The position numbers and the translations under genes were made by a program. 64,000 nucleotides of DNA from the human T2T-CHM13v2.0 reference genome, Homo sapiens, in the NCBI RefSeq assembly GCF_009914755.1, contig NC_060936.1. One strand, 5' to 3'. Under the pieces are notes generated by a model. The model was not told the origin of the DNA and did no database searches. It saw only the letters and a program-made list of their open reading frames with translations. Within the stretch, counting starts at the first letter, position 1; every line of letters starts with the position of its first letter. Shown one piece after another: positions 37,894-40,969 of the stretch.

Positions 37894-40800
37894 ATGGAAG
37901 TCAGCAACATGACCACAGTCACTGTGTTTATTCTCCTAGGACTGTCCAACAACCCTCAGGTTCAGGCACTGCTCTTTGTTCTGTTCCTGGTGATTTACCT
38001 CTTGACTCTACTGGGGAACCTGCTGATGGTGCTGGTGATCAGTACTGATTCCCACCTCTGCACCCCTATGTACTTCTTCCTGAGACAACTCTCCTTCCTG
38101 GATGCTTTCTATTCCTCAATTATTGTGCCTAAACTGCTAGAGAACCTTCTTTCTAAGGGGGAGACAATATCCTTCCTTGAGTGTTTCACTCAGATCTCCC
38201 TGGTCATATTTTCTGGAGCTACTGAGGCTTGCCTCCTCTCGGTCATGGCCTATGACCGGTTTCAGGCCGTGTGTCATCCACTGTTGTATGTGGTGATTAT
38301 AAACAGGAGGGTGTGTGCTGGCCTGGTGGGGGCATCCTGGGCCATAGGAATGGGGACTGGCCTAATTAACACCCTCCTCCTGGCTCAGCAGCACTTCTGC
38401 GGCCCTAATGTCATCCACAGTTTTGCCTGCGAGCTTCCTCCGGTGCTCTTATTCACCTGTTCTGACCCCTGCGCTAGCATCGTCTCCATTCTCACTACCA
38501 TGTCAGTCCTGGGCCTTGGCACCCTTGTCCTTTTGCTGGGTTCCTACAGCTGTATCATCATGACAGCCCTGAGGATCAACTCTGCTACAGGTCGGAGCAA
38601 GATCTTTTCCACCTGCTCTTCCCATTTCCTTGTGGTCACCATCTTTTATACTTCAGGAGTTCTCAGGTATGTCATACTATACCCCTGAATATAAATGCGG
38701 GATATTCCTTACCCTAAGTGGTCTCCGTTGGCAGAAGAGAGCATTACAAAATAGCAGGACATTCAAAAGGCCTAGGCTCTAGTGCTGGCTCTACCATGGA
38801 CTAGCTGTATGAATTGTAAAGAATCTATTTTCAGCTGGGTACAGTGGCTCATGCCTGTAACCCCAGCACTTTGGGAGGCTGAGGTGGGTGGATCACTTGA
38901 GCCCAGGAGTTGGAGACCAGCCTGGTCAACATGGCGAAACCCCATCTCTACTGAAAATATAAAAATCAGCCAGGTGTGGTCACGTGCACCTGTAGTCCTA
39001 GCTACTCGGGAGGCTGAGGCAGGAGAATTGCTTCAGCCTCGGAGGCAGAGGTTGCAGTGAGCGGAAATTGCACTACTGCACTCCAGCCTGGGTGACAGAG
39101 TGAGACTAGGTCAAAAAAAAAAAAAAAAACAGAATCTATTTTCTTTCTGAGGCTTCAATTGTCCATTCTGGAAAATGAATTTAGACCAAGATAAAGATTT
39201 TTCTACTTCATTAACCTAAGATTTGGGAGTTCGCAAAAAGAAATCAGAGAAGCTTTGTTAGATTTTTAATCAGTGTTAGACAAAAAATAAAACCTTTCTT
39301 TGAAACATATGCCATCTTTATTTCCTACTGGGAGATGTCGCCAAAGCTTACATATGTTGTAGCAATTTACTAGCCATTTACTATACACAAGCTGCTTTAC
39401 ATCGCCAAGCCAATTTGAGTATCCATCACACTACAAGAGAAATATTATCAACCCACTTTTAGGTAAAGAACCTGAGTTTGGGGAGTAATCAGGTAATTTC
39501 TCAGCAGTCCCAGAACAAGCTAGTAATGGAGCCATAAGTTGGACCGAGATCCGTGCCCTTCCTTACCATGCTTCTCAGACATCGACAGCTCTGTCTGCCT
39601 AGTCCTCCCTCACCAGGAGACAAAACAATCGATGCCTGTGCTTTCTACTAGTAAATTGAAGGTAGATTTGCACAAATTGTTCAATATTTTTCTCACCTGC
39701 CTGTGATTCAGAGAGAAGTCCAGGATGGAAATGGATGGTAAGAATAGCCCAGTACCTGTAGTCCAGTGGCTAGGAGAGAAAAAAAAATAAGTAAAATAAC
39801 TAAATAAATAAATAGCCCAGGAGAGCTTACCTGAGCTGTGCACCAATCTCTTCATCTCCCTTTGTCTCAGTTTCCTCATCTGCCATGAGGGATGTGACTA
39901 CTTACTTCATAGAAATGTTAGAAAGAATAAGTTAGATGACAAAAAATAACAGTAAAATGACTATTTTTTTTTATAACCAAACACATTGGAACCCACAAGG
40001 AACATCCTTGGGATAGTCTATTCCAATAATGATGGTGCCACTGCAAATAAATAATAATACTAGTGCTTCTTTGGAAGATACTCCGAGTGGTACTTAGCAA
40101 AATGTACCCAAGATTTTAATCTTATTATTTTGGAATCATATTATGTGCTTAACACATTTTTATCTCCCATTTTACCAGTTTTGGCTTCTTTTCCAAACCA
40201 AAGAAAAATGCAACTAAAAGGGCAAATGTTTGTTCCACTCAACTTTATACAAATAACAGGCAAGGATTCTGAGGGTAATTCCCAGGGCCATGAAGGTTGG
40301 GAATAATGACGATATTTTAAACTAAGTGTACAGTTTACATGAACAGTCATCACAAGGTGAGAACATTGCGTTTCTGTACTGTTGTGTATAAAGAGAAAAA
40401 TTCCTCATATGATCATCACAGCTATTAAGGAAGAATGCTTTGAAGAGTATGAAATGCTATGGAAATGTATGATATTATTATTCATTCTATTTTTTTGTTT
40501 TACTTTTTATCTGTCCCCAATATTAATTCTGTTCTAACCTGCAACATTTGATATGCTGCAGAACTGCTTGTTCCTCGGGGCAGCTCCTATAACTTTCTGT
40601 GTGAGCTCACTTATGTTTGGAAGTGTTTGAAGGCAGAAATGACTGACTTTTCACAGATCAGCCATTTCTAGATGCTGCCACCAGAGAAAGTCAGCTCTGA
40701 AGACCTCCTTTGCAGAGTCTTTGCAGGGAGGGGATGAATTATTGCTGCCAACAGTGAGAATTGTCACCATTGTCATAAGTTGCTTTTCTGTACAATTCCC

Positions 40801-40969
40801 TTCAAGGTATATGATTCCAGCATCTGGCTCAGCCCTAGAACAAGTGCTCTCCGTGCAGTACAGTGTGATAACCCCCCTGCTGAACCCCCTCATCTACAGT
40901 CTGAAGAGCCAGGAGGTAAAGGTGGCTCTGAGGAGGATGCTGGCCAGGAAGTCCAGGCTTCCCTTGTAG
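37894..40969 (+). CDS. OR5BS1P: Two-coding-exon olfactory receptor (OR5BS1/OR5BS1P): exon A 37894-38666, exon B 40807-40969, spliced product 311 aa
   Basis: Exon A encodes [51 protein letters not shown], then the donor AG|GTATGT. Acceptor ttgcttttctgtacaattcccttcaag|G at 40806/40807 rebuilds Arg258 (AG+G) and continues [43 protein letters not shown]. 773+163=936 nt, colinear with OR8S1. Symbol inferred from position between OR8S1 and LALBA. Confidence 0.82.
38770..39190 (+). mobile_element. MIR interrupted by AluS (38834-39130), in the OR coding intron
   Basis: MIR core TCTGAGGCTTCAATTGTCCATTCTGGAAAATG resumes after the Alu; Alu TSD AGAATCTATTTTC. Confidence 0.7.
39380..39920. mobile_element. 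Further MIR fragments in the OR coding intron
   Basis: ATTATCAACCCACTTTTAGGTAAAGAACCTGAG (antisense core, ~39443-39475) and TCTCAGTTTCCTCATCTG (~39865-39882). Confidence 0.6.

What the first reader, a model, noticed from the sequence alone, without database searches (positions are those of the whole stretch)
37894..40969. Apparent OR pseudogene is an intact receptor split by an intron after TM6
Seen: the ORF at 37894 stops after TM6 (RYVILYP*), but AG|GTATGT at 38666/38667 and a pyrimidine-rich AAG|G at 40806/40807 define a phase-2, 2140-nt intron. Removing it gives a 311-aa protein with no indel relative to OR8S1 across the junction (Arg258 in both; [38 protein letters not shown] vs [38 protein letters not shown]). 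Established: mammalian OR CDSs are nearly always one exon, and described split ORs mostly add a short N-terminal exon, so an intron inside the 7TM core is exceptional. Inference: a functional receptor carrying a pseudogene name. Curated annotation may already list this spliced CDS, so the novelty may be partial.
Basis: partly seen in the sequence, partly recalled or inferred. Interest (0 to 1): 0.8.

Follow-up and report, generated by a model that had tools for sequence, protein, structure and literature searches.

The report
Known split olfactory receptor gene OR5BS1
This is the human smell-receptor gene OR5BS1, whose coding sequence is cut in two by an old intron near its end; the sequence reading is correct, but the gene was published in 2020 and is already annotated this way.

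Summary
Exon 1 (37894-38666) ends CAG and is followed by GTATGT. A 2140-nt phase-2 intron ends AAG at 40806. Exon 2 (40807-40969) completes a 311-aa receptor that aligns to OR8S1 over 305 residues without a gap.

It is not new. Barnes et al. 2020 (PMC7055050) name OR5BS1P as the human orthologue of mouse Olfr240-ps1 and list 311 aa, intron after aa 257, 2139 bp. It is the only one of their 13 human split ORs with an intron beyond residue 24. RefSeq now calls it OR5BS1, protein-coding.

New support here comes from the 120 best homologues:
- 93 carry TM7.
- 25 are exon-1 read-through ORFs that leave the receptor sequence right after the same Arg.
- 83 full-length placental orthologues show no indel at the junction.
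- The exon-2 peptide is far better conserved than the intron read-through tails.

Both intron ends carry the hexamer AGGTAT. Tests for a tandem duplication, for transposon-like ends and for extra genomic copies were negative, so the intron's origin stays open. Human function is unproven, and published olfactory-mucosa counts are very low.

The parts
37894..38666 (+). OR5BS1 coding exon 1: 773 nt, codons 1-257 plus the first two bases of codon 258; N-terminus through TM6
   Evidence: Pfam 7tm_4 profile positions 1-224 of 280, E 2.5e-32; matches the RefSeq and GENCODE exon (hub table)
38667..40806 (+). Phase-2 U2-type GT-AG intron, 2140 nt (2139 in GRCh38 according to Barnes Supplementary File 3)
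   Evidence: no OR-like relic inside it; non-Alu parts are single-copy in the genome; GC 0.37-0.42 against 0.51-0.55 in the exons
38665..38670 (+). Donor-side copy of the hexamer AGGTAT (exon AG, then intron GTAT); donor CAG|GTATGT
   Evidence: ungapped comparison of the two junctions (6 of 6, then 5 of the next 9)
38686..38688 (+). TGA that ends the unspliced (intron-retaining) frame, giving a 264-aa protein without TM7
38833..39130 (+). Alu element inside the intron with an A-rich tail, flanked by a 13-nt target-site duplication (38820-38832 and 39131-39143)
   Evidence: families D1, D3, D8; dozens of similar copies in the window at 70-83% identity. The label Alu is my reading of the sequence and copy number, not a library match
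40780..40806 (+). Pyrimidine-rich tract (19 of 24 bases at 40780-40803) and the acceptor CAAG
   Evidence: A at position -3 is a less favoured acceptor base (recalled consensus)
40805..40810 (+). Acceptor-side copy of the hexamer AGGTAT (intron AG, then exon GTAT)
40807..40969 (+). OR5BS1 coding exon 2: 163 nt, last base of codon 258 to the TAG stop; ECL3, TM7 with the NPxxY-type motif, helix 8 and tail
   Evidence: Pfam 7tm_4 profile positions 242-280 of 280; tblastn with OR8S1 residues 258-305, E 1.2e-14

Best explanation
This is OR5BS1 (formerly OR5BS1P), a single-copy tetrapod-type odorant receptor gene. Its 311-codon frame is interrupted inside codon 258 (Arg, phase 2) by a 2140-nt GT-AG intron, at the extracellular end of TM6 just before ECL3.

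The major spliceosome joins 38666 to 40807. That restores a complete seven-helix receptor, with ECL3, TM7, helix 8 and the tail coming from the 163-nt second exon. An unspliced transcript would give a 264-aa six-helix fragment.

The intron is old. It sits at the same codon in orthologues named from Boreoeutheria, Xenarthra and Afrotheria. It arose by insertion of non-receptor DNA into a previously intronless coding exon at a CAG|G site. Later additions, such as a primate Alu, lengthened it.

What is shown here: the sequence anatomy, the conservation of both coding parts, and the conserved junction. What is published: RNA-seq support in mouse and curated conservation across mammals. What is inferred: efficient splicing and odorant-receptor function in human, and the mode of origin of the intron.
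For: - Anatomy and the gap-free 311-aa product.
- The two exons cover complementary parts of one 7tm_4 domain.
- OR-like sequence in the window is limited to OR8S1 and these two exons, with no relic in the intron.
- Barnes et al. 2020, section 7, describes the mouse gene ENSMUST00000216180 as an intact CDS split across two exons with strong RNA-seq support. It states that human OR5BS1P and other mammalian orthologues show the same split ORF and a conserved junction. The Supplementary File 3 row gives 311 aa, 257 aa and 2139 bp.
- 62 of the 120 best homologues are exactly 311 aa, at 74-98% identity over exon 1.
- 83 full-length orthologues plus human show zero gaps in the columns of human residues 245-275. 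The majority-residue fraction is 0.867 for the exon-1 part and 0.897 for the exon-2 part.
- 25 of the 120 are exon-1 ORFs that read into the intron. After the Arg they read Tyr-Val in 19, Cys-Val in 5 and Tyr-Ala in 1, then diverge and stop. 82 spliced forms continue Tyr-Met in 77.
- At matched exon-1 divergence, residues 3-16 after the junction are 0.80-0.82 identical in spliced forms and 0.20-0.32 identical in read-through tails.
- A mouse single-cell study lists 'OR5BS1P' among highly variable predicted receptor genes in mature olfactory neurons (passage seen).
Against: - Human transcript evidence is thin. The RefSeq model in the hub's table is CDS-only, with no UTR exons.
- Published normalised counts in 12 human olfactory-mucosa samples are 0 in 5 and at most 6.8. 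I saw no human junction-read count.
- The acceptor has A at position -3, and two other in-frame acceptors lie 27 and 48 nt upstream.
- The 311-aa orthologue proteins are mostly homology-guided gene models, so they are not independent proof of splicing.
- No DNA of orthologues was available, so no dN/dS could be computed.
- The human protein departs from the orthologue majority at 6 of 138 columns that are at least 95% conserved. The median per sequence is 2.5 and the maximum is 14.
- The AlphaFold model used to place the helices is poor, with mean pLDDT 52.6.
Confidence: 0.9

Rival explanations
1. The old annotation is right. The locus is a receptor pseudogene truncated after TM6, and the downstream TM7-like piece is a relic that is not joined to it.
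For: The contiguous ORF stops seven codons after the junction codon. Human expression is very low. The gene carried a pseudogene name for years.
Against: The two pieces are exactly complementary with no indel. The exon-2 peptide is as conserved as exon 1 across placental orders and far more conserved than the intron read-through tails. Mouse RNA-seq supports the junction, according to Barnes et al..
Confidence: 0.03
2. The gene structure is real and works in most mammals. In the human lineage the receptor is intact in sequence only and is effectively silent or under relaxed constraint.
For: Counts are at most 6.8 in 12 human olfactory-mucosa samples and zero in 5. Human differs at 6 of 138 highly conserved columns against a median of 2.5. 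Of these, K90E, L187F and N292S are not shared with the bonobo or gelada cluster representatives. The RefSeq model has no UTRs (hub table).
Against: The frame, both splice sites and the receptor motifs are intact. Several intact human receptors in the part of that table I read have similarly low counts. Six deviations is inside the range of other species, 9 of which have 7 or more. The bonobo cluster representative is 98% identical over exon 1.
Confidence: 0.25
3. The intron arose in one step by tandem duplication of a segment containing AGGT. In that case its 5' part would copy the start of exon 2 and its 3' part would copy the end of exon 1 (the mechanism of PMC3265369; I saw only the search listing and the start of the abstract).
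For: AGGTAT is present at both intron ends, and 11 of the first 15 positions match ungapped.
Against: Local alignment of the intron's 5' 166 nt against exon 2 plus flank scores 12.5, and 23 of 300 dinucleotide shuffles reach that. The intron's 3' 400 nt against the tail of exon 1 scores 11.0, reached by 172 of 300 shuffles. The post-Alu intron against 2 kb on either side is also unremarkable, with 6 of 60 and 18 of 60. A copy of the conserved exon 2 should still be recognisable.
Confidence: 0.03
4. The intron is a transposable-element insertion whose target-site duplication supplies both splice sites. One example would be an LTR-type element starting TG and ending CA with a 5-nt duplication AGGTA.
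For: If the duplication is read as AGGTA, the inserted DNA starts TG and ends CA. The 4-6 nt length fits the duplications of LTR elements (recalled). Barnes et al. say the mouse CDS is 'interrupted by repetitive sequences'.
Against: There is no terminal direct or inverted repeat: 65 of 200 and 155 of 200 shuffles reach the observed scores. Only the later Alu is repeated in the window. The non-Alu parts hit only themselves in the genome, apart from one 39-nt match. No transposon protein domain appears in 8 intron ORFs; every Pfam hit is below its cut-off. None of these tests can detect a very old, decayed element, and no repeat library was available.
Confidence: 0.1

Closest known systems
Mouse Olfr240-ps1 (ENSMUST00000216180), the orthologue described by Barnes et al. 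2020, BMC Genomics 21:196
   Same: The same kind of split. One intron late in the CDS, after aa 254 of 308 in mouse and after aa 257 of 311 in human, with a conserved junction. Both were formerly annotated as pseudogenes.
   Different: The mouse intron is 3128 bp against 2139/2140 bp in human. The five shortest unnamed read-through forms (258-259 aa) read Cys-Val after the Arg instead of Tyr-Val, so their donors differ at one base. Transcript support is strong in mouse according to the paper and weak in human.
The other 12 human split OR genes of Barnes et al. (for example OR4F5, OR5D3P, OR2I1P, OR51C1P)
   Same: Each has a receptor CDS spread over two exons joined by a GT-AG intron of 1.4-7.6 kb, curated as protein-coding.
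   Different: Their introns lie after residues 1-24, so the upstream exon adds only a start codon or a short N-terminal piece. Here the intron cuts the seven-helix core between TM6 and TM7.
OR8S1 (window 3649-4587), the nearest intact human paralogue
   Same: Same cluster, same length class (312 against 311 aa), 51% identity with no gap, and Arg258 in both.
   Different: Its CDS is a single exon. The homologous Arg codon is CGC rather than AGG, so there is no AG|G site at that position.
Mouse Olfr680-ps1 and Olfr682-ps1 (intron after aa 82) and Olfr592 (after aa 312)
   Same: These are the only other entries in Supplementary File 3 with an intron outside the N-terminus/TM1.
   Different: They have different positions and different clades, and the table lists no human counterpart.
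Solved odorant receptor structures, best match consensus OR5 (PDB 9wpm)
   Same: Full-length sequence match of the bonobo orthologue, residues 4-306, E 2.9e-84.
   Different: The comparison is by sequence only. OR5BS1 is two residues shorter in ECL3 in that alignment, and no structure or ligand exists for OR5BS1 itself.

Membership tests
Vertebrate odorant receptors (Pfam 7tm_4, rhodopsin-type GPCR) | Match to the 7tm_4 profile above the curated cut-off | tested here: met
   Exon 1 scores 113.2 bits against a cut-off of 27 and covers profile positions 1-224. Exon 2 scores 25.4 bits and covers 242-280, just below the cut-off on its own. The intronless neighbour OR8S1 scores 162.7 bits.
Vertebrate odorant receptors (Pfam 7tm_4, rhodopsin-type GPCR) | Intact ORF of about 300-350 aa (the criterion used by Barnes et al.) | tested here: met
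   311 aa with no internal stop after removal of 38667-40806. The criterion is quoted.
Vertebrate odorant receptors (Pfam 7tm_4, rhodopsin-type GPCR) | Seven transmembrane helices with an extracellular N-terminus | tested here: inconclusive
   The AlphaFold2 model of the bonobo orthologue P0001 (98% identical over exon 1) shows helices 21-51, 58-86, 94-122, 138-169, 192-227, 231-260 and 267-291, plus 293-305. Mean pLDDT is only 52.6. A full-length sequence match to solved receptors supports the fold.
Vertebrate odorant receptors (Pfam 7tm_4, rhodopsin-type GPCR) | Signature motifs (MAYDRY-like end of TM3, KAFSTCxSH-like start of TM6, PMLNPxIYSLR-like TM7; motif names recalled) | tested here: met
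   Variants of all three are readable in the translations. Their core residues are invariant or nearly so in 39 aligned sequences.
Vertebrate odorant receptors (Pfam 7tm_4, rhodopsin-type GPCR) | Monogenic expression in olfactory neurons and response to an odorant | not testable with these tools
Only indirect evidence is available. No ligand is reported in the papers found.
Split OR genes in the sense of Barnes et al. 2020 | Full-length ORF over two exons, no deletion in the seven helices, junction conserved in orthologues | tested here: met
   The gene is listed by name in their Supplementary File 3.
Introns created by tandem segmental duplication of an AGGT-containing segment | Intron ends are copies of the adjoining exon sequence beyond the AGGT | tested here: not met
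   Only 6 nt are shared (11 of 15 ungapped). The local alignments are not better than shuffles, at 23 of 300 and 172 of 300.
Introns created by transposon insertion with a target-site duplication | Terminal direct or inverted repeats, a multi-copy family, or transposon protein remnants | tested here: inconclusive
   None was found. An element older than the placental radiation could have decayed beyond these tests, and no repeat library was available.

The most novel reading that the evidence does not exclude
The AGGTAT hexamer at both intron ends is the surviving footprint of the event that created the intron. Foreign DNA was captured at a staggered break in a CAG|GTAT site of an intronless receptor gene before the placental radiation, and the short duplication supplied both the GT of the donor and the AG of the acceptor. 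That would make OR5BS1 a rare, datable, mechanistically readable mid-CDS intron gain in mammals. I found no discussion of this in print: OR5BS1, Olfr240, and 'intron gain' with 'olfactory receptor' and 'mammals'.
Probability: 0.3. Interest if true: 0.4.

Novelty: already known. Interest (0 to 1): 0.15.

Why it matters
As a discovery it adds little, because the split CDS is published and is in GENCODE and RefSeq.

It remains a useful reminder for pipelines that mine receptor genes as single-exon ORFs. Such pipelines call this gene a pseudogene. Prokaryote-style gene callers produce truncated exon-1 ORFs from it, and 25 of the 120 best database homologues are of that kind.

It is also the only human case in the published list where an intron cuts the seven-helix core. 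For this receptor, correct splicing is therefore a precondition for a functional protein.

The origin of the intron is still unexplained. It could be settled with genome alignments of non-placental vertebrates.

Tried and rejected
- **OR relic in the intron.** I looked for a decayed TM7 or TM6 copy, as would follow from two fused gene fragments. tblastn found only chance hits, E 0.73 and worse.
- **Tandem-duplication origin.** Rejected by shuffle-controlled local alignments. The best alignment was a 24-nt stretch of the intron's 5' part against exon 2, which was not significant (23 of 300). It is not matched by the read-through peptides of other species.
- **LTR-like or TIR-like ends.** None found.
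- **Extra genomic copies of the non-Alu intron.** Only the locus itself and one 39-nt match on another chromosome turned up. This search cannot see old repeats.
- **Pfam scan of 8 intron ORFs.** Nothing reached a cut-off.
- **Rfam scan of 37000-42000.** No family matched.
- **Structure prediction to place the junction.** The model is of low confidence (pLDDT 52.6), so I used only its helix boundaries, with caution, and ran no fold search.
- **Not attempted:**
  - dN/dS, because no orthologue DNA was reachable.
  - Splice-site scoring with a trained model, because none was available.
  - Dating the intron beyond placentals. No marsupial or monotreme name appears among the 120 listed hits, which is not evidence of absence.
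  - Figure 5b and the PDF supplement of Barnes et al., which hold the junction alignment and could not be read.
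Full report
**Observation.**
- The ORF starting at ATG 37894 runs through TM6 and stops at TGA 38686-38688 if read straight on.
- Exon 1 ends ...CTCAG at 38666 and is followed by GTATGT. The intron ends ...CCCTTCAAG at 40806 and exon 2 begins with G at 40807.
- Exon 1 is 773 nt, so the intron is in phase 2 inside codon 258. 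The intron is 2140 nt. Exon 2 is 163 nt and ends in TAG at 40967-40969.
- The joined frame gives 311 residues without a stop.
- It aligns to the neighbouring single-exon gene OR8S1 over 305 residues at 51% identity with no gap, and Arg is residue 258 in both.
- The 24 bases at 40780-40803 hold 19 pyrimidines, and no AG lies between 40780 and 40804.
- Pfam places exon 1 on positions 1-224 and exon 2 on positions 242-280 of the 280-position olfactory receptor profile. These are two complementary parts of one domain.

**It is already known.** A full-text search for OR5BS1 found five papers. The main one is Barnes et al. 2020, BMC Genomics 21:196 (PMC7055050). I read its abstract, sections 7 and 16, passages of other sections, and Supplementary Files 3 and 6 (part 1). 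I also searched passages of Files 1 and 4.
- Section 7 describes a mouse locus of two annotated pseudogenes. RNA-seq showed it to be one gene (ENSMUST00000216180) with an intact CDS split across two exons.
- Supplementary File 3 lists Olfr240-ps1 (308 aa, intron after aa 254, 3128 bp) beside OR5BS1P (ENST00000328207, 311 aa, after aa 257, 2139 bp).
- In that table the 13 human intron positions are aa 5, 9, 3, 3, 257, 3, 1, 9, 2, 7, 9, 24 and 4. This gene is therefore the one human exception to the rule that split receptors only add a short N-terminal exon (the text says 12 of 13).
- Files 1 and 4 show the locus already biotyped protein-coding with exon 1 at GRCh38 chr12:48559882-48560654.
- The hub's RefSeq table gives the same two coding parts under the name OR5BS1.
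- The T2T intron is one base longer than the GRCh38 one (2140 against 2139). I did not locate that base.

**Independent support gathered here.** A search with the exon-1 protein returned 1029 proteins at E <= 1e-20, of which the best 120 were listed at 74-98% identity.
- The names given by the sources cover primates, rodents, bats, carnivores, odd- and even-toed ungulates, pangolins and tree shrews. They also cover Xenarthra (sloth, armadillo, anteater) and Afrotheria (elephant, aardvark, tenrecs, elephant shrews, dugong).
- 62 of the 120 are exactly 311 aa.
- 93 of the 120 carry a TM7 NPxxY-type motif after position 255.
- Of the other 27, 25 are exon-1 ORFs that continue into what must be the intron. 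One ends at the Arg, and one sheep model stops 16 residues into exon 2.
- The read-through forms leave the receptor sequence directly after the same Arg. They read Tyr-Val in 19, Cys-Val in 5 and Tyr-Ala in 1. 82 spliced forms continue Tyr-Met in 77, Tyr-Val in 2, Tyr-Thr in 2 and His-Met in 1. These read-through ORFs are unintended evidence that the intron sits at the same codon in many species.
- In an alignment of 83 full-length orthologues (303-313 aa) with the human protein, no sequence has a gap in the columns of human residues 245-275. The exon-2 part is at least as conserved as the exon-1 part, with majority-residue fractions of 0.897 and 0.867.
- As an internal neutral control, I took pairs of sequences with 70-90% identity in exon 1. 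Residues 3-16 after the junction are 0.80-0.82 identical in spliced forms and only 0.20-0.32 identical in read-through tails.
- Two caveats apply. The spliced proteins are mostly homology-guided gene models. The tail comparison is ungapped.

**Position in the receptor.** An AlphaFold2 model of the bonobo cluster representative gives helices 231-260 and 267-291 with a loop at 261-266. That representative is 98% identical over exon 1, and the job used a 39-sequence alignment. The model would put codon 258 in the last turn of TM6. It is poor, however, with mean pLDDT 52.6 and residues 256-263 below 50. The sequence match to solved receptors is full-length; the best is consensus OR5, 9wpm, at E 2.9e-84. 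'After TM6' is therefore a fair description.

**The intron itself.**
- It contains an Alu at about 38833-39130, flanked by a 13-nt target-site duplication. Dozens of similar copies lie in the window. This is a later, primate-age addition.
- The rest of the intron has no other copy in the window. In the whole genome it hits only itself, plus one 39-nt match elsewhere.
- It holds no receptor-like relic, no Rfam family and no Pfam domain above cut-off in 8 ORFs.
- Its G+C is 0.37-0.42 against 0.51-0.55 in the exons.

**Origin of the intron.** One feature that I did not find in any text I read is that both ends carry the same hexamer, AGGTAT (38665-38670 and 40805-40810). Ungapped, 11 of the first 15 positions agree.
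- This is the pattern expected if a short duplication made at the time of insertion supplied the donor GT and the acceptor AG.
- It would also explain the unusual T at donor position +4.
- From recalled splice-site base frequencies, I estimate such a 6-nt repeat would arise by chance in well under 1 in 100 introns. I noticed it after the fact, and the donor is itself under selection.
- The one-step tandem duplication model predicts that the intron ends copy the adjoining exons, and they do not. Shuffles reach the observed score in 23 of 300 and 172 of 300 trials.
- Terminal direct or inverted repeats of a transposon are absent, with 65 of 200 and 155 of 200 shuffles reaching the score.
- OR8S1 has CGC, not AGG, at the homologous Arg codon.
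- The origin stays open. Insertion of foreign DNA at a CAG|G site is the best reading, since the protein shows no indel against intronless paralogues. That also rules out conversion of exon sequence into intron.

**Is the human gene functional?**
- The frame, both splice sites and the receptor motifs are intact.
- The gene is single-copy. Its nearest human relatives are only 52% identical (a pseudogene with one TAG, at the position the hub's table gives for OR8T1P) and 50% identical (OR8S1) over exon 1.
- Human departs from the orthologue majority at 6 of 138 columns that are at least 95% conserved: K90E, M136I, L187F, T261I, V279I and N292S. The median is 2.5 and the maximum is 14, in a dugong protein. 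Two of the six (T261I, V279I) are shared with both the bonobo and the gelada representatives, and M136I with the bonobo one only.
- Published normalised counts in 12 human olfactory-mucosa samples are 0, 0, 2.0, 6.8, 0, 1.8, 0.5, 0.8, 1.8, 0, 0 and 2.9. These are as low as several intact receptors in the part of that table I read, and as low as the neighbouring pseudogene OR8T1P.
- A mouse single-cell study filtered out 'OR5BS1P' as a highly variable predicted receptor gene in mature olfactory neurons (passage only).
- No ligand or functional assay appears in the papers found. Function in human is plausible but not shown.

**Verdict.** The finding is already published and annotated, so its interest is low. 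The only open thread is how the intron arose. The AGGTAT repeat is a lead for that question, not a result.

Noticed in passing
window 38820-39143: An Alu element with an A-rich tail lies inside the OR5BS1 intron, flanked by a perfect 13-nt target-site duplication. About 300 nt of the intron is therefore a primate-age addition.
   Followed up: partly
proteins P0005, P0013, P0014, P0028-P0030, P0041, P0046, P0050, P0058, P0064, P0067, P0070, P0082, P0086, P0092, P0095, P0102, P0105-P0109, P0111, P0112: 25 of the 120 best database homologues are truncated ORFs made of exon 1 plus an intron read-through. 24 of them come from short unnamed contigs of metagenome-type sources, which looks like mammalian DNA called with single-exon gene finders. 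They inflate the apparent number of short receptor proteins.
   Followed up: partly
proteins P0100 (450 aa) and P0116 (328 aa), both named Manis pentadactyla: These look like mis-modelled pangolin proteins. One fuses parts of two receptors. The other carries 17 extra residues exactly at the junction, as if another donor or acceptor had been chosen.
   Followed up: no
proteins P0057, P0059, P0085, P0088, P0091, P0096: Six distinct 5BS1-like clusters are named from one Tenrec ecaudatus contig. This suggests a lineage-specific tandem expansion of the split gene. If so, the intron was copied along with it.
   Followed up: no
protein P0119, named Dugong dugon: This protein has the most departures from conserved columns, 14 against a median of 2.5, including changes in and next to the TM7 NPxxY-type motif. 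That could reflect relaxed constraint in an aquatic mammal.
   Followed up: no
window 37850-37869: Two pyrimidine-rich AG sites (ending at 37859 and 37869) lie 25-35 nt upstream of the ATG. This is the usual place where a non-coding 5' exon is spliced onto a receptor coding exon. The RefSeq model has no UTR exon.
   Followed up: no
window 37894-40969 against GRCh38 chr12:48559882-48562956: The gene span is 3076 nt in this assembly and 3075 nt in GRCh38 (Barnes Supplementary File 1), so the intron is 2140 against 2139 nt. I did not locate the extra base.
   Followed up: no
between OR8S1 and OR5BS1 (GRCh38-style position 48,539,450 as printed in the paper): A 2026 review table lists rs11168618, assigned to OR5BS1P/OR8S1, among genome-wide association signals for circulating adiponectin (PMC13702204, passage only).
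   Followed up: no
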